From positions 8,719 through 72,718 of the forward strand of contig MESW01000003.1 in the NCBI GenBank assembly GCA_001771135.1: 64,000 nucleotides of DNA, read 5' to 3'. This document shows positions 22,693 to 55,322 of this stretch, in pieces. The number at the start of each line of letters is the position of its first letter. The stretch's first letter is position 1. The position numbers and the translations under genes were made by a program. This DNA is from a candidate division CPR3 bacterium GWF2_35_18 (GTDB lineage: Bacteria; Patescibacteriota; CPR3; GWF2-35-18). The notes under the pieces were generated by a model. That model searched no databases. It saw only the letters and a list, made by a program, of their open reading frames with translations, and was not told the DNA's origin.

Positions 22693-25692
22693 TTAACCTT
22701 TGATATTTGAGTTTTGAGTTATAAGTTTTTGTAGATATTGACCGGTATAAGATTCTTTAGTATTCGCGATCTCTTCGGGTTTACCCATCGCAATAATTCT
22801 TCCTCCTTCATCTCCACCTTCTGGACCCAAATCAATTACGTAATCAGCATTTTTAATGACATCAAGATTGTGCTCGATAATAATTATTGTGTTACCATGA
22901 GCAACCAGTCGTTTCAAGACATTAAGAAGCTTTTCAATATCGGCAAAATGAAGACCGGTTGTGGGTTCATCAAGAAGATAAAGAGTTCTACCCGTTTGCT
23001 TTTTGGATAGTTCTGAAGCCAATTTCACACGTTGAGCTTCTCCACCGGAGAGCGTTGGAGCCGGTTGACCCAGGCGAATATATGATAATCCCACGTCAAA
23101 AAGAGTTTCCAGTTTCGATGCAATCCGAGGAATATTGGTAAAGAATTTCATTCCCTCTTCAACGGTCATATTTAAAATTTCAGAGATATTTTTATCTTTA
23201 TAATGAATTTCGAGAGTATCACGGTTATATCTTTTACCATTACAAGCTTCACAGGTAACATATACATCAGGTAAAAACTGCATTTCAATTTTAATCATCC
23301 CTTCCCCTTCACAGTTTTCACATCGACCGCCTTTGACATTGAACGAAAATCTTCCCATCTGGTAGCCACGGGCGCGAGATTCCGGAGTATCAGTAAAAAG
23401 ATCTCGAATATGATTAAAAACTCCAGTGTAAGTAGCCGGATTAGAGCGTGGTGTACGACCAATTGGAGACTGATCAATCAAAATAACTTTGTCGATAAAC
23501 TCCATGCCTTTTATTTTTTTGTAAGAGCCGGGCTTAATATTTCCTTCTTTTAATTGTTCTTTGAGAGCGTAATATAGAGTATCATGAATTAAGGTCGATT
23601 TTCCGGATCCAGAAACACCGGTAATACAGATAAATTGGCCTAACGGAAAGGAAACCGTGAGATTCTTGAGATTGTGATCTGTAGCTCCAATAAGCTCTAA
23701 ACTGTGAGTATTCTTTGATTTTTGATGGAGATTATTTTTAAGCAAAAATTCTTCTGAAACATAAGGTTTGATCTGTTTTTGGTTTGACAAATATTTTCCG
23801 GTAACTGAATTTTTATCGTTTTTAATATGCTCCGGAGTTCCCTGACTAACGATCTGTCCACCATGTTCTCCAGCCCCTGGTCCAAAATCAACTACATAAT
23901 CAGCGCTTTCGATCATCTCGGCGTCATGTTCAACGACAATAACCGTGTTTCCGAGGTCTCGTAAACGTTTTAGCGTATTTATAAGTCGAGTGTTGTCTCT
24001 TTGATGTAGTCCAATTGTAGGTTCGTCCAGAATATACAAAACGCCAGTTAATCCGGAACCGATCTGTGAAGCAAGTCTGATTCTTTGCATCTCTCCTCCG
24101 GCTAAAGTATTGGCACTACGGCTTAAAGTCAGATAATCAAGGCCCACGTCAATTAAAAACTGCAAGCGAGCCATAGTTTCTTTTAGGATTGGTTTCGCAA
24201 TGATCGTTTCTCTTTCTGATAGTAAGGAGTTATTGTTTTCGCTTAAATCAGACAACCATTTGTGCAGTTTTCTAATAGCATATTCGCTAATTTGAGCAAT
24301 ATTAATCTCATAAATTGTGACGCCTAGAGATTCTGGTTTCAGTCTTTTTCCTTGACAGGTAGGACAGGGATCAAGACGCATAAATTTTTCAATCTCTCCA
24401 CGGATAAAATCAGAATCAGTCTGTTTATATCGTCTTTCTAAATTGGGAATAATGCCTTCAAAAGTCGTGGTATACTGCTTGATTTTATGAGTAGAGTCAT
24501 CACCGAGAATGGTATAACTTTCGTCTCCAGTGCCATACAGAACTAGATTCAATTCTTTTTCAGAAAAGCGAATAACCGGTTTTTGGAGATCAATTTGGTG
24601 GGATTTTGCAACTTCTTCTAGGAGTCGAAACATCCAAGAATCATAAGAAAGCATGCGAGCATAAGGAATTATCGCTCCCTCTGCAATAGTTAAATTCGGC
24701 GCTAAAATCAGGCTTTTATCCACGTTCAAAGTAGTCCCAATACCAGTACAGGTCGGACAAGCTCCGTGTGGAGTATTAAAGGAAAAATTTCGCGGTTCAA
24801 GCTCTGGTAATGAAATATTACATTCTGGGCAAGCGAATCTTTCAGAAAAAAGATGATCTGCGGTTACTTTAGGAAAGGTAGGAACTTCAAACGAAGCGTC
24901 TTTAATTTCAGCGACGATAAGATTACTTTCCCCAAGTTTCAGTCCTTGCTCCGTAAGTTCAATAATTTTTTGCCGGAGAGTTTCCGGATTTTGGTTATTA
25001 TCAAGAACGATTCGTCCAATTTCTACATCAATACTATGTTTATTAGTCTTTATTAAAACAAAATCTTCTTGAAGACTGCGAAATTCACCGTCAATTCGGA
25101 CGTTAAAATATCCACGTTGACGTAGCGAGTCAAAAAGTTTGGAATATTCTCCTTTACGATCTTTAATAAGTGGAGCGAGAAAAATTAATCGTATCCCCCG
25201 TTTTTTCGCTAATTTGTCATTATTATCACCGATTTTAAAAATCTGATTTACAATTTGGGGAATAGTTTGATGACTGATTTCGCGGCCGCAATTCGGACAA
25301 TGCGGGTGTCCAATGCGAGCATATAATACTCTTAAATAATCATAAATCTCGGTAATTGTTCCCACTGTGGAACGAGGATTGTGGCTTGTGGTCTTTTGAG
25401 TGATCGAGATTGCTGGAGAAAGTCCTTCAATGGAATCGACATCAGGTTTATCCATAACTCCCAAAAATTGACGGGCGTATGATGAAAGAGATTCGACATA
25501 ACGGCGTTGACCCTCCGCATAGATCGTATCAATTGCCAAAGAAGACTTTCCGGAACCTGATAAACCGGTAAAAACCACGAGTTTATTACGTGGGATATCA
25601 ACATTTATATTCTTGAGATTGTGTTGGCGAGCGCCGCGGATAATAATGTTTTGCATAATTACCAAATATAACCCGAAATTATTAGTATACAA
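22693..25692 (-). CDS. uvrA: Excinuclease ABC subunit A
   Basis: 999 aa; two ABC ATPase modules with [10 protein letters not shown] and [10 protein letters not shown] Walker A motifs, LSGGE signatures, Zn-finger Cys clusters. Confidence 0.95.
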
Positions 25693-44895: not shown

Positions 44896-46992
44896 TTATA
44901 CGGAAAGTTTTTTGATGACATCTCGAATCTGAGCGGCACGTTCGAAATCTAAATTTTTGGCGGAATTGCGCATCAATCTTTGGAGTCTATTTAAAGCCTG
45001 TTTCTTTTGATCGGGAAGCATTTCCGGCCAAGACTCCTCTATTTCAATGAGATCGGAGATATCAATATAAATCTCTTTTTTTGATAACTGAGATTTCCGT
45101 TTTAGATCTTCAGCAATCTCTTCAGTAAGTTCTATCAGTTTGGGACGAATCTGTTTTTTTATCGATTTGGGAACAATGTGATGCTCTTTATTATATCTAT
45201 TTTGAATAAGTCGACGCCTATTTACCTCATTAATAGCTGCTTTCATTGATTTTGTCATATTATCTGCATACATAATGACGTAACCGTTTTCATGACGAGC
45301 CGCTCTACCCATAGTTTGGATGAGGCTGGTAGCGGAGCGTAAAAAAGATTCCTTATCAGCATCTAGAATCGCGACCAAAGAGACTTCCGGAAGATCAAGT
45401 CCTTCTCGCAAAAGGTTAATTCCTACAAGTACATCATACTTACCATTACGTAAATCAGCTAAAATATCGGTACGCTCCAAAGTATCCACATCAGAATGAA
45501 GATACATTGATTTTATTTTTTTCTCTTTGAGGTAGGTAGATAGATCTTCGGACATTTTCTTCGTTAAAGTGGTAATTAAAACTCGTTGACCTTTGTCTAT
45601 CCTTTTGTTAATCTCTTTCAGTAAATCCGGAATCTGACCTTCAGTAGGTCGTATGGAAATCTCTGGATCAATAAGTCCGGTAGGTCGAATCAGTTGTTGC
45701 GTGATTGGCGACCAGGTCTTTTTAAATTTGAACTTTTGCGCTTTACTTCTAGTTAACTCCCACTCTGAAGGTGTGGCGGAAACATAAACGGTTTGGGGCA
45801 TTCTGGCCTGGAATTCATCAAAGTTCAAAGGGCGATTATCAAAAGCGGCTTTGAGACGGAAACCGTAATCAATCAGGGTCTGTTTACGGGAACGATCACC
45901 GGCATACATTCCCCCGATTTGGGGTACAGTCATATGTGATTCATCAATCATCAGAAGCCAGTTATTATTTTCTGGCTGTTGTTTATTCTTCAATTTAGAA
46001 TCAAATAATCGGAAATAGTCTAGTAAGGTATAGGGAGGATCATTGATCTTTCGACCATCAAAATAGCGAGAGTAGTTTTCTATTCCAGAGCAAAAACCAA
46101 GCTCCCGAATCATTTCCAGATCATATTTAACTCGTTGTTTTAACCTTTCGGCTTCAAGATGATGTCCGTGACTCAAAAACAATTTTACCTCTTTTTCCAT
46201 ATCCGACTCTATTTCCTGTAAAATCTTTTCCCGATTATCTTCTCCGGCAATATAGTGTCGAGCGGAAAAAACTTGAAAGATAGGATATTCAAATTTTTTC
46301 TTCCCATTGATTGGATCAAAAGCATAAATCTGTTTAATTATTTCATTTTCAGTAAATTCTACGCGAGTAGGGCTGTCTTCCCAAGAAGGATAAATGTCAA
46401 ATGAACCACCACGGATACGGAAAGTGCTACGGCGGAAATCAAAATCATTACGTTCGTAATATAACTTCAGAAGTTCTGTAATTAATTTTTTCTGCGGATA
46501 ATGCTTCCCTATTTTTAAGGTAATTATACTTTTCCCAAATTCAATGGGAGAACCAATATTATAGATACAAGAAACTGAAGCAACGACGATCACATCTTTA
46601 CGAGTAAGCAGAGAGGCTGTAGTTGATAATCTCAATTTTTCAATCATATCGTTAATATCAGACTCTTTGTCAATATAAGTATCGGTTTGGGGAATATACG
46701 CTTCTGGTTGATAATAGTCATAATAAGAAACAAAATATTCCACGGCATTATCGGGAAAGAACTCTTTAAATTCCTGAGCAAGTTGAGCGGCTAAAGTTTT
46801 ATTATGAGAGATTACCAGTGTCGGTCGCTGGGTTTTTGCAATTACATTCGCCATAGTAAAGGTTTTTCCACTACCTGTTACGCCAAGTAGAACTTGATCT
46901 TTAACGCCATTATCAAGACCATAAATTAAATTATCAATGGCTTGAGGTTGATCACCGGTAGGTTTAAATTGAGATTGTAATTTAAATTTCAT
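44896..46992 (-). CDS. uvrB: Excinuclease ABC subunit B
   Basis: 698 aa; N-terminal GDQPQAI…GVTGSGKTFT helicase motif I, DESH, C-terminal UVR domain. Confidence 0.95.
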   Translation of the reverse strand: MKFKLQSQFKPTGDQPQAIDNLIYGLDNGVKDQVLLGVTGSGKTFTMANVIAKTQRPTLVISHNKTLAAQLAQEFKEFFPDNAVEYFVSYYDYYQPEAYIPQTDTYIDKESDINDMIEKLRLSTTASLLTRKDVIVVASVSCIYNIGSPIEFGKSIITLKIGKHYPQKKLITELLKLYYERNDFDFRRSTFRIRGGSFDIYPSWEDSPTRVEFTENEIIKQIYAFDPINGKKKFEYPIFQVFSARHYIAGEDNREKILQEIESDMEKEVKLFLSHGHHLEAERLKQRVKYDLEMIRELGFCSGIENYSRYFDGRKINDPPYTLLDYFRLFDSKLKNKQQPENNNWLLMIDESHMTVPQIGGMYAGDRSRKQTLIDYGFRLKAAFDNRPLNFDEFQARMPQTVYVSATPSEWELTRSKAQKFKFKKTWSPITQQLIRPTGLIDPEISIRPTEGQIPDLLKEINKRIDKGQRVLITTLTKKMSEDLSTYLKEKKIKSMYLHSDVDTLERTDILADLRNGKYDVLVGINLLREGLDLPEVSLVAILDADKESFLRSATSLIQTMGRAARHENGYVIMYADNMTKSMKAAINEVNRRRLIQNRYNKEHHIVPKSIKKQIRPKLIELTEEIAEDLKRKSQLSKKEIYIDISDLIEIEESWPEMLPDQKKQALNRLQRLMRNSAKNLDFERAAQIRDVIKKLSV

Positions 46993-47074
46993 AGTATTTC
47001 GGATTATCCTTTGTATTTTACTCTAATTTTCACCTAATTTGAAGTTTCTTTAGATACGCTTTACAATACATGTT

Positions 47075-49757: not shown

Positions 49758-50882
49758 ATGTATATTAATGGTTATGGTTCTTGGGGTAATTGTAGTGATG
49801 CACATACTAGAATAGATATTTTAAACCGTTTTTCTCCTTGGTATACAAACAATTTTAGGATACGTTCGTATGGATACATCGATGATGGTCATATTTTATA
49901 TTGCAGAACTAATCCACATTCTCAAGATATTTTTGATTATCATGAACTAGATAAAAATGCTAATCTAATAAAGATTCAGGGAGAGACATATGCAAAAAGA
50001 ATTGATAATTTTGTTTCTCACTGTTTTCATAACTTCAAATTAAAACAAGTTATTCCCTTAAAGGGTTGGTGTTCTTGGAATACTTATTTTCAATACATTT
50101 CTCCAGAAAAAATTAAGACTCAAATCAGTTATGCCAAAATAATTAAAGAGAATCTGGATAAAGATTTTAAATATTTTCTCATTGATTTTGGCTATAGTAA
50201 TGTTGGAGATCTTATAACTAACAACAATCAGTGGATATACAAATCAATAGAAGATATTAATTCCCAAGGATTAATATCTGGTATTTGGATAAATCCTTTT
50301 ACTTCAATCCATAAGTTTGAACATAATACTCATATTAAATCCAAATTTAAAAAGTTATTTTTAAGAACGGTTGCTTGTAATTCAAATAAGATAATACCAT
50401 TATATTTAATGTCCATACACGACTTTGAATATCAAGAGTTACTTCTAAATAGAATTAAATATTTATATGATTTAGGAATACGTTTATTTAAATTTGATTT
50501 TAATATCTTTTTATTTTGGCAGAATGAAAATTATTTAGACATTTTAAAAATATATAGGAAATTTTATTTAAATGTAAGAAAAGTTGCACCCAAAGCTATT
50601 TTGATCGGTTGTGGTGTCCCCCTTTTTGATTCTATTGGTTTATTTGATTATGTTAGAGTAACTAAAGATTCTTTAATTGCGCCTTTTTCACCAAAACAAA
50701 TAAGGAACTTTGTCCAAAATATCCGTCAGCAAGACATAAACAGAGCAATTAAAGTCAGAAAGCCATTTGACGGTCTTCTTTGGCACGCGGACTATGATCA
50801 AATTGATGATCCGAAAATATATATAAAGAGTAATGATAAAATAAAAATGGCTGGATTTGATTTGAAGAAAATGTTAACTTAG
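49758..50882 (+). CDS. Putative glycoside hydrolase (clan GH-D alpha-galactosidase-like?)
   Basis: 374 aa; GWCSWNTYF… resembles GWNSW start of GH27/36 catalytic barrel; weak. Confidence 0.35.
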   Translation: MYINGYGSWGNCSDAHTRIDILNRFSPWYTNNFRIRSYGYIDDGHILYCRTNPHSQDIFDYHELDKNANLIKIQGETYAKRIDNFVSHCFHNFKLKQVIPLKGWCSWNTYFQYISPEKIKTQISYAKIIKENLDKDFKYFLIDFGYSNVGDLITNNNQWIYKSIEDINSQGLISGIWINPFTSIHKFEHNTHIKSKFKKLFLRTVACNSNKIIPLYLMSIHDFEYQELLLNRIKYLYDLGIRLFKFDFNIFLFWQNENYLDILKIYRKFYLNVRKVAPKAILIGCGVPLFDSIGLFDYVRVTKDSLIAPFSPKQIRNFVQNIRQQDINRAIKVRKPFDGLLWHADYDQIDDPKIYIKSNDKIKMAGFDLKKMLT

Positions 50883-52053: not shown

Positions 52054-53508
52054 ATGCGTATTGTTTTTACCTCTTTTTATGAAAAGCCATCAATGGGCGG
52101 TGGACCGGGAGTCATAACACATGAACTGCCACAAGTTTTTTCCAAGAATCATGAAGTGCTTTTTATCTGTCCGGGACGAAAAAATAGTCTAAAAAAAGTT
52201 AACAAAAACCTAAAAGTTGCTTATATATCTAGTGAAACAAACAGAGAAATTTCAATTCCTTTCTTAAGTGTTCCTAATGTTTTTCATATATTTAAAACGC
52301 TATCTGATTTCAAACCGGATGTGATACATTCCCAGGACTTTGATCCTATTTCTCTAATCTGTCAGATCTGGGCGATCGTTCATAATGTTGCTTTTTTCCA
52401 TACTATTCACATTTTTCCAGGAAAACGAAGCGAATTTGGAATTTCGGAAGCCTCAAAAACATTCTCGAAATTCTATGCTTCAAAGTTTTTTGGAAGTTAT
52501 GTCATGAATTATTTTGATAACTGCGACGCTCTAATTACCTTAAATCAATCTGTGGAGGACAACGTCCGTAGCTTTGGTTATCAAGGAAATACCTTTATAA
52601 TTCCAAACGGAATTAGATTAGAAAATTATCAAAAGACGAAAAAAACAGATATTAAAGCAACTAAAAAAGAGCTTCTTTTTGTCGGGTTCCTTTCCAAAAG
52701 AAAAAATCAAGAGTACTTAATTAATGTTATGAAGTATCTTCCTCAAAATTATCATCTTACTTTGATTGGAGATTCTATAAATCAAAGTTTCAAAAAGGAG
52801 ATGTTACACTATATTCATGAAAACAATTTAGATAAAAAGATTACTATTAAAAATAAATTGCCACATGACATAGTTACAAAATACTTAAAAAATACGCACG
52901 TGTTTGTCTCAGCCTCTATTATGGAGTTGCAAAGCTTAGTAATTCTGGAGTCACTTGCTTCAGGAACTCCAGTGGTTGGATTATCAAACGATACAATCAA
53001 CGAACTTATTGATAGTGATACCGGTTCAAAATTGCCTCAAAATACCACCCCTATGCATTTTGCAAAAGAGGTAGAAAGGATCTGTAAATTATCGGAAAAG
53101 GACTATTTGATTCTTTCTGAAAACGCACGCTCAAAGATCTCTCACTTAGATTGGAATATTGTTTCCGAAAAAATGGTTGCTGCTTATAAAAGAACCATTG
53201 AATACAAAAAGATTCGCGATCAAAAACAGAAATATAAGATGATTACCAGAATAATTCCGATTTTTAATGATCTTAATTTCGTCAAGTTTATTCGTAGCTA
53301 TATTAAAAAAATCTTGTCATATTTACCATTTGAGGTAGAAAAGAAAGAAATTGAAGATTACAAAATGCAACCGAAAAAGCTACTTGAGTTGAAGTGGCAG
53401 TATCTATATCTATTTATTATGATTTTAACAACGCTTTCGGGAGTATTTACCTTTAGATTGATTCGCAACACCAAAAAAATTAAAAGCATATTATCAAAAA
53501 AGATTTAA
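52054..53508 (+). CDS. GT4-family glycosyltransferase with C-terminal TM segment
   Basis: 484 aa; ESLASGTPVVG (E-x7-E region) typical of GT4/GT1 retaining transferases. Confidence 0.65.
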   Translation: MRIVFTSFYEKPSMGGGPGVITHELPQVFSKNHEVLFICPGRKNSLKKVNKNLKVAYISSETNREISIPFLSVPNVFHIFKTLSDFKPDVIHSQDFDPISLICQIWAIVHNVAFFHTIHIFPGKRSEFGISEASKTFSKFYASKFFGSYVMNYFDNCDALITLNQSVEDNVRSFGYQGNTFIIPNGIRLENYQKTKKTDIKATKKELLFVGFLSKRKNQEYLINVMKYLPQNYHLTLIGDSINQSFKKEMLHYIHENNLDKKITIKNKLPHDIVTKYLKNTHVFVSASIMELQSLVILESLASGTPVVGLSNDTINELIDSDTGSKLPQNTTPMHFAKEVERICKLSEKDYLILSENARSKISHLDWNIVSEKMVAAYKRTIEYKKIRDQKQKYKMITRIIPIFNDLNFVKFIRSYIKKILSYLPFEVEKKEIEDYKMQPKKLLELKWQYLYLFIMILTTLSGVFTFRLIRNTKKIKSILSKKI

Positions 53509-54615
53509 TTGAGCTTCATATTTTCCATTTACGGTGATAAATTGAGAGGCTCTTCTTATTGAAATTCCCATCTTTTTTAACTCAAAATGTGAATTGATCT
53601 TTCCATATTTTATCCTTCTTTGTATTATTTTATCGACATTATCAGGTCCAATTCCCGGTATTTTTAATAAGTTATTTCTAGGTGAGGTGTTAATTTCTAT
53701 TGGATATAATTCAGGATGGCTTTCCGCAAAAGCAAGCTTTGGATCTTTTTGTAGGCTCAACATTTTATTTTTCCCGAGAACTATGTCGTTTTTCTGAAAA
53801 CCATAAAACCGCAAGAGAAAATCTGCTTGATATAATCGATGACCTCGTTTTGTAGTTGAAGCGGTTACATCCTGAAGTGGCGATCCGGAAACTGGCGAAA
53901 AAGAAGAATAAAAAATCCGCGTCAATTTAAGCTGTCTATATAATAACTGCATTGTATCTAGAATTTCAGCATCACTATCTCGAGTTGCTCCAACTACAAA
54001 CTGCGTGGTTTGAGAAATATTTCTTTTATATTTAAGATTATATTTTTGACGGATTGTATTCAGACGAATGACTGTTTTTAATACCTCGTTTTCATAATTT
54101 TTGTCGGGAGAAATTTCCTTTAACCTCTCAGAATTAGGAGCTTCAAGGTTGAGAGAAACACGGTTACTTAATTTTAGTGCTTCTTCTAAATAAATATCAG
54201 TAACTCCAGGCATAATTTTAAGATGAATATACCCATGATAATGATATCTCTGACGGATAATCGTTGCCGTTTCCAAAATCTTTGACATCGCTGTTTGGGA
54301 ATTTCCCAAAATTCCGGATGAAAGAAATAAGCCATCAACAAGTCTTTTTCCTATAAGCTCCATAAAAGTTCTAGCCATATCATCAGGACTTAAAACAACA
54401 CGAGGGGTATTCATACAAGCCTGATTAACACAGTAACGGCAGTGTTTGATACAAGAATTAGTTTGTAAAACTTTAAAAAGTCGACAATATCCATTACCTG
54501 TTTTTGCAAAATACACTCCCGGAATTTTTTGGTCAATTCCTTCTTTGGGACCACAAGTATCATATTTTGCTGAAGGCCCTAAAATTTGAAGTTTTTTATA
54601 TACAGAATCTAACAT
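53494..54615 (-). CDS. Radical-SAM DNA modification/repair protein with C-terminal helix-hairpin-helix
   Basis: 373 aa; CIKHCRYC (Cx3Cx2C); C-terminal IPGIGPDNVDKII HhH; divergent from lexA. Confidence 0.6.
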   Translation of the reverse strand: MLDSVYKKLQILGPSAKYDTCGPKEGIDQKIPGVYFAKTGNGYCRLFKVLQTNSCIKHCRYCVNQACMNTPRVVLSPDDMARTFMELIGKRLVDGLFLSSGILGNSQTAMSKILETATIIRQRYHYHGYIHLKIMPGVTDIYLEEALKLSNRVSLNLEAPNSERLKEISPDKNYENEVLKTVIRLNTIRQKYNLKYKRNISQTTQFVVGATRDSDAEILDTMQLLYRQLKLTRIFYSSFSPVSGSPLQDVTASTTKRGHRLYQADFLLRFYGFQKNDIVLGKNKMLSLQKDPKLAFAESHPELYPIEINTSPRNNLLKIPGIGPDNVDKIIQRRIKYGKINSHFELKKMGISIRRASQFITVNGKYEAQLNLF

Positions 54616-54625
54616 AATGATACTC

Positions 54626-54674
54626 TTGACATTCGGTTTTTATTCGGGTAACATATATCCAAAGAATACCCGAA
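54626..54674 (+). promoter_or_regulatory. lexA promoter (TTGACA-17-TAACAT) overlapped by palindrome TTCGGGTA-N16-TACCCGAA (candidate LexA operator)
   Basis: -35/-10 hexamers and inverted repeat read directly; located in 86-bp divergent intergenic region between radical-SAM repair gene and lexA. Confidence 0.5.
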
Positions 54675-54701
54675 TATTTATTTCAAGTCAAGGAGTACAA
54701 A

Positions 54702-55322
54702 ATGTCACCAGTAACTATTTATAAAAAACAGAGGCTAATTGTCGATTACATAAAACAATACATTCAAAAATATGGAAGCTCCCCTACTTTAAGTGAAATT
54801 GCTGACGCGATGGGTGTAAGATCACTTGCAACCGTACACGAACATCTGGAAACATTAGAGAAAAAAGGTTTGATCAAAAGATTTCAAGGTGCAGTTCGCG
54901 GAATTCAGATTTTGGAAGAAAAGATTAGTGATAATTTACAAGGAATTGAACTCCCTCTAATTGGATATATTGCGGCTGGCAAACCAATTGAAGCCATTGA
55001 AGATCATACGCAAACAATCTCTGTTTCACCATCAATGTTGACCGGTAAAAAACGTGGATTTGTACTCCAAGTCAAAGGTGAATCAATGATTGAAGAAGGA
55101 ATCCTTGATGGGGATTATGTGGTAATTGAACAGCAAAATACGGCCAATAATGGAGATATTGTGGTCGCTTTATTAGAAAACGAATTTGCGACCTTAAAAA
55201 GATATTATCGTGAAGCAACCCGGATTCGCTTAGAACCGGCAAATGCAAAGATGAAACCGATATACAGTAATGATGTCCAAATACAAGGCAAGGTTGTTGG
55301 AGTAATCCGAAGATTTCACTAA
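54702..55322 (+). CDS. lexA: LexA repressor (S24 peptidase)
   Basis: 206 aa; N-terminal wHTH, Ala-Gly cleavage site (IAAGKP), catalytic GESM Ser and LKRY Lys. Confidence 0.9.
   Translation: MSPVTIYKKQRLIVDYIKQYIQKYGSSPTLSEIADAMGVRSLATVHEHLETLEKKGLIKRFQGAVRGIQILEEKISDNLQGIELPLIGYIAAGKPIEAIEDHTQTISVSPSMLTGKKRGFVLQVKGESMIEEGILDGDYVVIEQQNTANNGDIVVALLENEFATLKRYYREATRIRLEPANAKMKPIYSNDVQIQGKVVGVIRRFH

What the first reader, a model, noticed from the sequence alone, without database searches (positions are those of the whole stretch)
54616..54701. Divergent SOS control region: lexA promoter overlapped by TTCGGGTA-N16-TACCCGAA palindrome, shared with radical-SAM DNA-repair gene
The 86-bp intergenic region carries a near-consensus promoter (TTGACA-17-TAACAT) for lexA. 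An 8-bp-arm inverted repeat overlaps the -10, and a direct repeat ATTCGG sits upstream. The divergent neighbour is a radical-SAM/HhH DNA repair protein. The palindrome differs from both the E. coli box (CTGT-N8-ACAG) and the Cheo box (GAAC-N4-GTTC), so it may define the LexA operator of this lineage.
Basis: partly seen in the sequence, partly recalled or inferred. Interest (0 to 1): 0.55.

Follow-up and report, generated by a model that had tools for sequence, protein, structure and literature searches.

The report
Two head-to-head LexA direct-repeat operators
The palindrome between lexA and a radical-SAM repair gene is real, but it is a by-product of two oppositely oriented copies of the direct-repeat LexA operator typical of Patescibacteria, so this is an ordinary, compact SOS control region, not a new palindromic LexA box.

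Summary
The sequence observation holds. A perfect inverted repeat lies at 54641-54650 / 54667-54676, with 10-bp arms rather than 8. It overlaps a TTGACA-17-TAACAT promoter between lexA (+) and a radical-SAM/HhH gene (-).

The window is from candidate division CPR3 (Patescibacteria). In 56 of 80 related lexA loci the conserved element between the -35 and -10 is a direct repeat, TTCGGKT-N4-TTYGKKT, with an 11-bp period. It is not a palindrome.

The window holds two such operators head to head:
- op1, 54632-54649 (+), lies inside the lexA promoter.
- op2, 54657-54674 (-), overlaps a TTGACT-17-TATTCT promoter that faces the radical-SAM gene.

A relative with 62% radical-SAM identity keeps both operators and both -35 boxes, but its arm spacing is N30 instead of N16. 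Radical-SAM orthologues elsewhere carry their own direct repeat. A third site sits 3 nt upstream of the uvrA start codon; uvrB has none.

A direct-repeat LexA motif in Patescibacteria appears to be published already (Sánchez-Osuna et al. 2017). That paper was not readable here. This is therefore a new instance of a known kind, of modest interest.

The parts
54626..54631 (+). lexA promoter -35 hexamer, TTGACA
   Evidence: Promoter scan found TTGACA-17-TAACAT at 10 of 12. A TTGAC-like hexamer lies within 10 nt 5' of the operator in 53 of 56 related loci.
54632..54649 (+). LexA operator 1: direct repeat TTCGGTT-tttA-TTCGGGT. It fills the -35/-10 spacer of the lexA promoter.
   Evidence: Best hit of the position weight matrix (PWM) in the window at 25.2 bits; the highest score in 100 shuffles was 18.2. 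The sequence is identical to the lexA-upstream site of L050. A blind Gibbs sampler recovers the same motif.
54649..54654 (+). lexA promoter -10 hexamer, TAACAT. Its first base is the last base of operator 1.
54657..54674 (-). LexA operator 2: direct repeat TTCGGGT-attc-TTTGGAT on the minus strand, oriented towards the radical-SAM gene
   Evidence: Second-best PWM hit in the window at 21.8 bits. L083 has the equivalent TTCGGGTAATCTTTGGGT at the same place. It closely resembles the operator upstream of the radical-SAM orthologue in L089, TTCGGGTattcTTCGGGT.
54663..54668 (-). Predicted -10 hexamer (TATTCT) of the radical-SAM gene promoter, inside operator 2
   Evidence: Promoter scan found TTGACT-17-TATTCT at 9 of 12 on the minus strand. 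L083 has TTGACA-17-TAATCT in the same register. Predicted only; not shown experimentally.
54686..54691 (-). Predicted -35 hexamer (TTGACT) of the radical-SAM gene promoter, 11 nt from operator 2
   Evidence: L083 has TTGACA, also exactly 11 nt from its operator 2, although the 11 nt themselves differ.
54641..54676 (.). It consists of unit 2 of operator 1 plus unit 1 of operator 2.
   Evidence: The spacing is not conserved in L083.
54690..54695 (+). lexA Shine-Dalgarno sequence AAGGAG, 6 nt before the ATG
   Evidence: Read directly from the sequence.
54702..55322 (+). lexA coding sequence (206 aa)
   Evidence: TIGR00498 at 213.5 bits. LexA_DNA_bind and Peptidase_S24 domains. The Ala-Gly cleavage site and the Ser and Lys catalytic residues align with E. 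coli LexA.
53494..54615 (-). Radical-SAM / helix-hairpin-helix gene (373 aa), a putative DNA modification or repair enzyme
   Evidence: TIGR03916-like at 306.8 bits, below the 343.5 cutoff. Radical_SAM and HHH_3 domains. 94% identical to a candidate division CPR3 protein.
25660..25677 (-). Third operator-like direct repeat, TTCGGGT-tata-TTTGGTA, ending 3 nt before the uvrA ATG (25656..25654)
   Evidence: 19.7 bits, above all 100 shuffles. Sequence context. The 72%-identical uvrA in L093 has TTCGTATaataTTCGGGT 7 nt before its ATG. No site in 13 other Microgenomates uvrA loci.
22693..25656 (-). uvrA coding sequence (987 aa)
   Evidence: NF001503 at 1448.7 bits. 100% identical to UvrA of candidate division CPR3 bacterium GWF2_35_18.

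Best explanation
The 86-bp lexA / radical-SAM intergenic region holds two LexA operators of the Patescibacteria direct-repeat type. Each has two TTCGG-type units 11 bp apart, so both units face the same side of the helix. The two operators are placed head to head.

Operator 1 (54632-54649, +) fills the spacer of the lexA promoter and touches its -10. Operator 2 (54657-54674, -) covers the -10 of a predicted promoter on the opposite strand that drives the radical-SAM/HhH gene. The two promoters cross, with each -35 lying on the far side of the other promoter. Each operator therefore also sits on the start site or early transcribed region of the other gene.

LexA bound at both sites would shut off both genes by blocking RNA polymerase. 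RecA-stimulated self-cleavage of LexA after DNA damage would release both.

The perfect palindrome arises only because the best-conserved unit of each operator (TTCGGGT) happens to be identical and the operators point in opposite directions.

What is shown: the motif, its conservation, its position, and its orientation relative to genes. What is inferred: LexA binding, the transcription start sites, and the use of the minus-strand promoter.
For: 1. Motif discovery. A Gibbs sampler run blind on the 250 nt upstream of lexA in 80 related loci converges on TTGACnTTCGGnTTTTnTTCGGnTA.
2. Specificity. Sites of 15 bits or more: 60 in 56 loci lie within 700 nt upstream of lexA on the lexA strand. One lies on the opposite strand there, and 3 lie in the remaining 424 kb. 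A TTGAC-like -35 abuts the site in 53 of 56 loci.
3. Window scan. Exactly three hits exceed every shuffle: op1 at 25.2 bits, op2 at 21.8 and the uvrA site at 19.7, against a shuffle maximum of 18.2. Only the N4 spacer gives outliers; N3, N5 and N6 give none.
4. Conservation of the module. L083 (radical-SAM 62% identical, 257-bp intergenic region) keeps the whole arrangement: TTGACA, op1, 8 bp, op2 reversed, 11 nt, TGTCAA. Its flanks have diverged.
5. Both promoters are found by the consensus scan.
6. Independent regulon evidence. Radical-SAM orthologues not adjacent to lexA carry the same direct repeat just upstream on their own strand in L086, L087, L088, L089 and L090.
7. Geometry. Operators take up 36 of the 86 intergenic bases (a 43-bp span with the gap between them) and begin 17 nt from the radical-SAM ATG. 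Any promoter for that gene must therefore overlap or read through them.
8. The LexA here is complete and looks cleavable.
9. Literature. PMC7739468 cites the Patescibacteria SOS paper among three references for LexA proteins that recognise direct repeats. PMC8565304 states that the COG4277 helix-hairpin-helix gene, in a COG1573-COG4277 operon, was inferred to be LexA-regulated in other phyla. Equating COG4277 with this radical-SAM family is my own knowledge.
Against: - No binding or transcript data exist for this organism.
- The minus-strand promoter matches only 9 of 12 positions. Matches of this quality are common in AT-rich DNA: 3 were found in the region against 1.8 in shuffles.
- L072 has an inverted second operator downstream of a lexA-operon promoter with no divergent gene. 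Operator 2 could therefore serve lexA autoregulation alone.
- Two independent radical-SAM loci have no site: L084/L085 (two records of one place, Dojkabacteria) and L091. The distant L081 has none either.
- The two operator centres are about 25 bp apart, roughly 2.4 helical turns. That does not suggest cooperative contact between the two dimers.
- The published Patescibacteria consensus could not be read, so identity with it is not verified.
Confidence: 0.8

Rival explanations
1. One reading: the palindrome TTCGGGTA-N16-TACCCGAA is itself the LexA operator of this lineage, bound symmetrically by one LexA dimer.
For: The palindrome is perfect, has 10-bp arms and is unique in the window. It overlaps the lexA -10. 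Most characterised LexA boxes are palindromes (PMC8565304).
Against: - It is absent from all 80 related lexA loci and present only where the radical-SAM gene is divergent.
- The arm spacing is N16 here but N30 in L083.
- uvrA carries a direct repeat with no inverted partner.
- The two arms are about 25 bp apart centre to centre. The largest palindromic LexA box quoted in the literature read here is GGTT-N10-AACC.
Confidence: 0.03
2. Both operators serve lexA autoregulation only, one in the promoter spacer and one as a roadblock at the start site. The radical-SAM gene would then be affected only incidentally, or be transcribed independently of LexA.
For: Second operators downstream of the lexA promoter occur in other loci. 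They are tandem in L073, L075 and L076 and inverted in L072, where there is no divergent gene.
Against: - Radical-SAM orthologues elsewhere have their own operator.
- The -35 box on the radical-SAM side is kept exactly 11 nt from operator 2 in L083 although the sequence in between has diverged.
- No space for a promoter free of operators exists between operator 1 and the radical-SAM ATG, which are 16 nt apart.
Confidence: 0.12
3. The palindrome acts as a nucleic-acid hairpin or cruciform (an RNA leader structure or attenuator), or as the site of a different dimeric regulator. It would then be unrelated to LexA.
For: As RNA, 54636-54681 folds into a 10-bp stem at -11.8 kcal/mol, with z = -3.67 and 0 of 200 shuffles folding as well.
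Against: - The predicted start sites of both transcripts fall between the arms, so neither RNA would contain both arms (inference).
- No Rfam family matches the region.
- In L083 the pairing register differs.
- Both arms are fully explained as units of a motif conserved in 56 loci.
Confidence: 0.05

Closest known systems
Patescibacteria LexA-binding motif (Sánchez-Osuna, Barbé & Erill 2017, Environ Microbiol 19:3465)
   Same: The phylum, the repressor and the autoregulated lexA promoter are the same. PMC7739468 cites that paper among three references for LexA proteins that recognise direct repeats. The motif derived here from 80 loci is a direct repeat.
   Different: The paper is not in the held library, so its consensus and regulon list could not be compared. 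The head-to-head double operator in crossing divergent promoters, and the CPR3 lineage, may or may not be covered there.
Alphaproteobacterial (and Acidobacterium) SOS box, GTTC-N7-GTTC
   Same: It is a direct repeat with an 11-bp period and a TTC core (PMC8565304). Many Parcubacteria sites literally read TTCGGTTTTTGTTCGG, that is NTTC-N7-GTTC.
   Different: The unit here extends to TTCGG(G/T)T, and the first unit rarely begins with G. The lineage is unrelated, so the direct-repeat arrangement presumably arose independently, as PMC7739468 suggests.
Gram-positive Cheo box, CGAAC-N4-GTTCG
   Same: The half-site core is the same, TTCG / CGAA (my own knowledge of the consensus). The position between or over the -35 and -10 is also the same.
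   Different: The Cheo box is an inverted repeat with a 4-nt spacer. Here the units are direct with an 11-bp period. The window's inverted pair is 25 bp apart centre to centre and is not conserved.
Multi-operator and divergent SOS promoters in E. coli (two boxes at lexA; one box shared by divergent uvrA and ssb)
   Same: lexA is autoregulated through more than one operator, and a compact divergent region places two genes under LexA control (established knowledge, not tested here).
   Different: The box type differs (CTGT-N8-ACAG palindrome). Here each direction has its own oriented direct-repeat operator, and the partner gene is a radical-SAM enzyme.
LexA-regulated COG1573-COG4277 (UDG plus radical-SAM/HhH; TIGR03914/5-TIGR03916) operon reported in several phyla
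   Same: A radical-SAM/HhH gene of this family sits under a LexA operator. PMC8565304 describes the operon as part of SOS-like regulatory networks.
   Different: The gene here is solitary. Its neighbours are lexA and a convergent, slightly overlapping glycosyltransferase gene. It scores below the TIGR03916 cutoff. The Patescibacteria orthologues examined also lack an adjacent UDG-like partner.

Membership tests
Patescibacteria-type direct-repeat LexA operator | Two TTCGG-type units in direct orientation with an 11-bp period (4-nt spacer between 7-nt units) | tested here: met
   op1, op2 and the uvrA site score 25.2, 21.8 and 19.7 bits against a shuffle maximum of 18.2. Spacer variants N3, N5 and N6 give no outliers.
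Patescibacteria-type direct-repeat LexA operator | Located in the lexA promoter, overlapping the -35/-10 elements (autoregulation) | tested here: met
   op1 lies exactly between TTGACA and TAACAT. The same layout is seen in 53 of 56 related loci.
Patescibacteria-type direct-repeat LexA operator | Conserved upstream of lexA orthologues across the phylum and rare elsewhere | tested here: met
   60 sites in 56 of 80 loci lie upstream of lexA on its strand, against 3 in the other 424 kb. The motif was found de novo.
Patescibacteria-type direct-repeat LexA operator | Also present upstream of other DNA-damage genes (a regulon) | tested here: met
   The radical-SAM gene carries it here, in L083 and in five independent loci. 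uvrA carries it here and in L093. It is absent at uvrB and at uvrA in 13 other Microgenomates loci.
Patescibacteria-type direct-repeat LexA operator | Bound by the cognate LexA protein | not testable with these tools
   Needs EMSA or footprinting. The published validation could not be read.
Palindromic LexA box (E. coli CTGT-N8-ACAG or Cheo-box type) | Inverted repeat of two half-sites with a fixed short spacer, conserved upstream of lexA and other SOS genes | tested here: not met
   The N16 palindrome is absent from the 80 lexA loci. Its spacing is N30 in L083. It is not present at uvrA.
LexA repressor (TIGR00498) | Winged-helix LexA DNA-binding domain plus S24 peptidase domain, with an Ala-Gly cleavage site and a Ser/Lys dyad | tested here: met
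   213.5 bits against a cutoff of 111. PF01726 and PF00717.
TIGR03916 putative DNA modification/repair radical SAM protein (rSAM_link_UDG) | Score at or above the curated cutoff of the family model | tested here: not met
   306.8 bits against a cutoff of 343.5. The match covers residues 6-368 of the protein and positions 2-382 of 415 in the model.
TIGR03916 putative DNA modification/repair radical SAM protein (rSAM_link_UDG) | Radical-SAM CxxxCxxC motif plus a C-terminal helix-hairpin-helix | tested here: met
   CIKHCRYC is in the translation. PF04055 at 36.8 bits. PF12836 at 23.2 bits, just under its cutoff of 27; PF12836 is listed as a precomputed hit for most homologues.
TIGR03916 putative DNA modification/repair radical SAM protein (rSAM_link_UDG) | Paired with an adjacent TIGR03915 / UDG-like partner gene (the family's description, from my own knowledge) | tested here: not met
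   The neighbours are lexA and a glycosyltransferase. No such partner is called next to the orthologues in L082-L091. The rest of the window was not searched for one.

The most novel reading that the evidence does not exclude
In the CPR3 lineage a compact conserved cassette controls two crossing divergent promoters. The cassette is -35, op1, a 7-8 bp gap, op2 reversed, 11 nt, and the second -35, about 66 bp in all. Each oriented direct-repeat operator would repress its own promoter at the -10 and the partner promoter at its start site. This would tie lexA autoregulation tightly to a solitary radical-SAM/HhH enzyme of unknown repair chemistry, which would then be a core SOS gene of Patescibacteria. 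In this lineage the regulon also reaches uvrA through a site that abuts the start codon, possibly on a leaderless transcript.
Probability: 0.55. Interest if true: 0.3.

Novelty: new member of a known kind. Interest (0 to 1): 0.22.

Why it matters
The result corrects a tempting misreading. A perfect 10-bp palindrome over the lexA -10 looks like a new LexA box. Comparative data show that the recognition unit is used as a direct repeat, as I believe is already published for Patescibacteria.

On the practical side, the work yields a usable matrix for predicting SOS genes in these uncultured, reduced genomes. It identifies the solitary radical-SAM/HhH gene as a recurrent LexA target, which makes it a good candidate for an uncharacterised damage-repair activity. 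It also documents a tidy example of two oriented operators sharing one 86-bp bidirectional promoter. None of this changes how the SOS response is understood.

Tried and rejected
- Palindrome search in the window with up to 3 mismatches. The only other hit was a 3-mismatch chance match at 49781, at the level seen in shuffles.
- Single arms (TACCCGAA with up to 1 mismatch) are not enriched: 47 found against 42 expected.
- The metagenome scan with the radical-SAM protein returned only one distant locus, L081 at 38% identity, with no operator.
- The radical-SAM gene is not next to lexA in any of the 80 genome loci. That synteny had to be reached through protein homologues instead.
- The uvrB upstream region holds TTCGGAT-N5-TTTGTAT (46998-47016). 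With a 5-nt spacer matrix it scores 14.7, equal to the mean shuffle maximum of 14.2, so it was rejected.
- A spacer-free hit at 53358-53375, inside the glycosyltransferase ORF, scores 17.5. This lies within the shuffle range (95th percentile 17.6) and was rejected.
- uvrA upstream regions in 13 other Microgenomates loci show no site. L092 offers only 38 nt upstream and shows none.
- Rfam gives no match in 54300-55000.
- The primary paper on the Patescibacteria SOS network is not held under its DOI or its PubMed id. No held paper quotes its consensus.
- There is no DnaA box near the window's lexA.

Full report
**What is in the sequence**

The 86-bp interval 54616-54701 lies between a minus-strand gene that starts at 54615 and a plus-strand gene that starts at 54702.

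- The plus-strand gene is lexA. It scores 213.5 bits against TIGR00498, whose cutoff is 111, and has LexA_DNA_bind and Peptidase_S24 domains. Its AAG, GESM and TLKR motifs align with the cleavage site and the Ser/Lys dyad of E. coli LexA.
- The minus-strand gene encodes a 373-aa radical-SAM protein. It has a CxxxCxxC motif and a C-terminal helix-hairpin-helix. It resembles TIGR03916 but scores below that model's cutoff, 306.8 against 343.5 bits.
- The promoter TTGACA-17-TAACAT is at 54626-54654 and matches 10 of 12 positions.
- The inverted repeat is perfect and in fact has 10-bp arms: TATTCGGGTA at 54641-54650 and TACCCGAATA at 54667-54676.
- ATTCGG is repeated directly 11 nt apart, at 54631 and 54642.

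**Whose genome this is**

The UvrA encoded in the window is 100% identical to that of candidate division CPR3 bacterium GWF2_35_18. The radical-SAM protein is 94% identical to one from CPR3 GW2011_GWE2_35_7. The nearest LexA proteins in species-representative genomes are Patescibacteria of the Microgenomates type, at 72% identity or less. The window has 37% G+C.

**What is conserved upstream of lexA**

I took the 250 nt upstream of lexA from 80 related loci and ran a Gibbs sampler with no prior motif. Five of six seeds converged on TTGACnTTCGGnTTTTnTTCGGnTA. This is a direct repeat of TTCGG-type units with an 11-bp period, sitting between the -35 and the -10.

A position weight matrix (PWM) built from 45 of these sites carries 20.6 bits. 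At a threshold of 15 bits it finds:
- 60 sites in 56 loci within 700 nt upstream of lexA on the lexA strand;
- 1 site on the opposite strand there;
- 3 sites in the remaining 424 kb.

A TTGAC-like hexamer abuts the site in 53 of 56 loci. This is the signature of an autoregulatory LexA operator that blocks RNA polymerase.

The literature held here cites the Patescibacteria SOS paper among three references for LexA proteins that have switched to direct-repeat recognition (PMC7739468). The paper itself (Sánchez-Osuna, Barbé & Erill 2017) could not be read. I could not check whether my consensus equals theirs.

**What the palindrome really is**

Scanning the window with the matrix gives exactly three hits above every one of 100 shuffles, whose maximum was 18.2 bits:
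- op1, 54632-54649 (+), TTCGGTTtttaTTCGGGT, 25.2 bits;
- op2, 54657-54674 (-), TTCGGGTattcTTTGGAT, 21.8 bits;
- a site at 25660-25677 (-), TTCGGGTtataTTTGGTA, 19.7 bits.

Only a 4-nt spacer gives such outliers. Spacers of 3, 5 or 6 nt give none.

The intergenic region thus contains two complete direct-repeat operators pointing in opposite directions, 7 bp apart. The repeat finder reports the same thing as 20-nt arms at 54631-54650 and 54656-54675 that are 75% complementary. Those two units happen to be the best-conserved ones (TTCGGGT) and so are identical.

**Tests that separate the two readings**

1. A TTCGGGT-N10-30-ACCCGAA palindrome occurs in none of the 80 lexA loci. It occurs only in L082 and L083, the two loci in which the radical-SAM gene is divergent from lexA.
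2. L082 (CPR3 GW2011_GWE2_35_7) has an identical 86-bp region and so adds no independent information.
3. L083 is informative. Its radical-SAM protein is 62% identical and its intergenic region is 257 bp. It retains cTTGACA-TTCGGGTTTTGTTTGGAT-ataattct-ACCCAAAGATTACCCGAA-11 nt-TGTCAA. That is both operators (26.0 and 19.6 bits) and both -35 boxes in the same relative positions. The TTCGGGT/ACCCGAA arms, however, are now 30 nt apart rather than 16. The direct repeats are the conserved units; the palindrome spacing is not.
4. uvrA has the direct repeat and no inverted partner.

**The radical-SAM side**

The consensus scan finds TTGACT-17-TATTCT on the minus strand, with the -35 at 54691..54686 and the -10 at 54668..54663. 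Op2 begins 11 nt after the -35 and covers the -10. L083 has TTGACA, also 11 nt from its op2, and TAATCT in the -10 position. The 11 nt in between differ.

The two promoters therefore cross. The predicted start sites, near 54661 (+) and 54655 (-), lie in the gap between the operators. Each operator sits on the early transcribed region of the other gene.

Independent of any promoter prediction, only 16 nt separate op1 from the radical-SAM ATG. RNA polymerase transcribing that gene must bind over the operators or read through them.

Orthologues of the radical-SAM gene that are not next to lexA carry their own direct repeat just upstream, on their own strand:
- L089: TTGACTcTTCGGGTattcTTCGGGT;
- L088: TACGGGTttctTTCGGGT;
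- L090: TTCGTATtataTTCGGGT;
- L086: TTCGGTAaataTTCGGGT;
- L087: four tandem units.

L084/L085 (two records of one place, Dojkabacteria), L091 and the distant L081 have no site.

The gene is thus a recurrent LexA target in this phylum. This agrees with reports from other phyla that the COG4277 helix-hairpin-helix gene, in an operon with a COG1573 glycosylase gene, belongs to the inferred LexA network (PMC8565304). Equating COG4277 with this radical-SAM family rests on my own knowledge. Here the gene is solitary, with no adjacent UDG-like partner.

**Other SOS genes in the window**

uvrA (22693-25656, NF001503 at 1449 bits) has the third site, which ends 3 nt before its ATG.
- A 72%-identical uvrA in L093 has TTCGTATaataTTCGGGT 7 nt before its ATG.
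- L092, from the same sample as L083, offers only 38 nt upstream and shows none.
- 13 other Microgenomates uvrA loci have none.

uvrA control therefore looks real but restricted to this lineage.

uvrB (44896-46992, minus strand, NF003673 at 965 bits) has only an off-register TTCGGAT-N5-TTTGTAT element, which scores at chance level.

**Mechanism, with shown and inferred steps marked**

Shown:
- the motif, its phylum-wide conservation at lexA promoters, and its orientation bias;
- its occurrence twice head to head here and in L083;
- its occurrence at radical-SAM and uvrA genes;
- the presence of a complete LexA.

Inferred:
- LexA dimers bind each direct repeat, presumably with both N-terminal domains in the same orientation as in the alphaproteobacterial GTTC-N7-GTTC system;
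- binding blocks both promoters;
- RecA-stimulated autocleavage de-represses both genes;
- the start sites and the use of the minus-strand promoter.

The operator centres are 25-26 bp apart, about 2.4 helical turns. I see no reason to propose cooperativity between the two dimers.

**Rivals**

- Palindrome as the operator: contradicted by all the comparative tests above.
- Op2 as a second autoregulatory roadblock only: plausible in part. L072 has an inverted second operator without a divergent gene, and tandem second operators occur in L073, L075 and L076. The operators at radical-SAM orthologues elsewhere, and the conserved -35, argue that the radical-SAM gene is a genuine target. The two roles are not exclusive.
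- RNA hairpin or cruciform: the stem is stable as RNA, at -11.8 kcal/mol with z = -3.67. The predicted start sites split the arms, Rfam has no match, and the pairing register differs in L083.

**Comparison with the known, and verdict**

This works like every LexA-repressed promoter. By motif architecture it belongs with the direct-repeat LexA boxes: Patescibacteria 2017, and Alphaproteobacteria GTTC-N7-GTTC. The unit core TTCG equals the Cheo-box half-site (my own knowledge).

It is not a new palindromic box. What may be new is the specific cassette of two oriented operators in crossing divergent promoters for lexA and a solitary radical-SAM/HhH gene in CPR3, and the uvrA site next to the start codon.

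I rate it a new member of a known kind, with low to moderate interest.

Noticed in passing
Loci L044-L080 (Parcubacteria-type lexA loci), around the lexA operator; not in the window: There are 34 perfect DnaA-box 9-mers (TTATCCACA) in all 80 lexA loci (479 kb). Of these, 25 (in 25 loci) lie within -79 to +46 nt of the start of the LexA operator. They cluster at two places: 20-24 nt upstream, just 5' of the -35, or 32-46 nt downstream, just 3' of the -10. This suggests DnaA co-regulates lexA in Parcubacteria. The window has no such box near lexA.
   Followed up: partly
L041, L042, L043, L047, L048 (Levybacteria-type lexA loci), about 50-90 nt upstream of lexA: These five loci lack the direct repeat. 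At the same promoter position they share TTGACAAAAATAyACGAAAAnT(C/T)nTAT, in some cases a TATACGA-N4-TCGTATA inverted repeat. This may be a different, palindromic LexA motif within the same superphylum.
   Followed up: no
window 53494-54615 (-) and orthologues in L082-L091: The radical-SAM/HhH gene scores below the TIGR03916 cutoff. Neither it nor the roughly 361-aa Patescibacteria orthologues examined have the adjacent UDG-like/TIGR03915 partner that normally accompanies this family. The rest of the window was not searched for a partner.
   Followed up: partly
window 53494-53508: The 3' end of the radical-SAM ORF overlaps the 3' end of the convergent glycosyltransferase ORF (52054-53508, +) by 15 nt. 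The CPR3 GW2011_GWE2_35_7 orthologue is 20 aa shorter (353 against 373 aa), although its intergenic region and its overlap are the same.
   Followed up: no
window 25654-25680 (-): The uvrA operator ends 3 nt before the ATG and there is no Shine-Dalgarno sequence. A TATATT inside the operator could act as a -10 for a leaderless or nearly leaderless uvrA mRNA. Several radical-SAM orthologues (L086, L088, L089) have similarly short distances from operator to ATG.
   Followed up: no
L016, L028, L029, L039: 20-50 nt upstream of the uvrA ATG: The uvrA leaders of several Microgenomates share a small hairpin-like element just upstream of the start codon, CCACGG-N-CCGNGG-like.
   Followed up: no
L084/L085, 40-90 nt upstream of the Dojkabacteria radical-SAM gene: There is no TTCGG direct repeat here. 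Instead a dense set of repeated GTCAA / TTGACAA elements appears (cttgtcaagtcaataagtcaatgaccttgacaagttgtcaatt). This may be a different regulator site.
   Followed up: no
L073, L075, L076 (tandem) and L072 (inverted), upstream of the lexA operons: Second operators lie 30-35 bp downstream of the first. In these loci the operators sit 450-700 nt upstream of lexA, so lexA appears to be the distal gene of an operon. In L072 the upstream gene is a small 117-aa ORF.
   Followed up: partly
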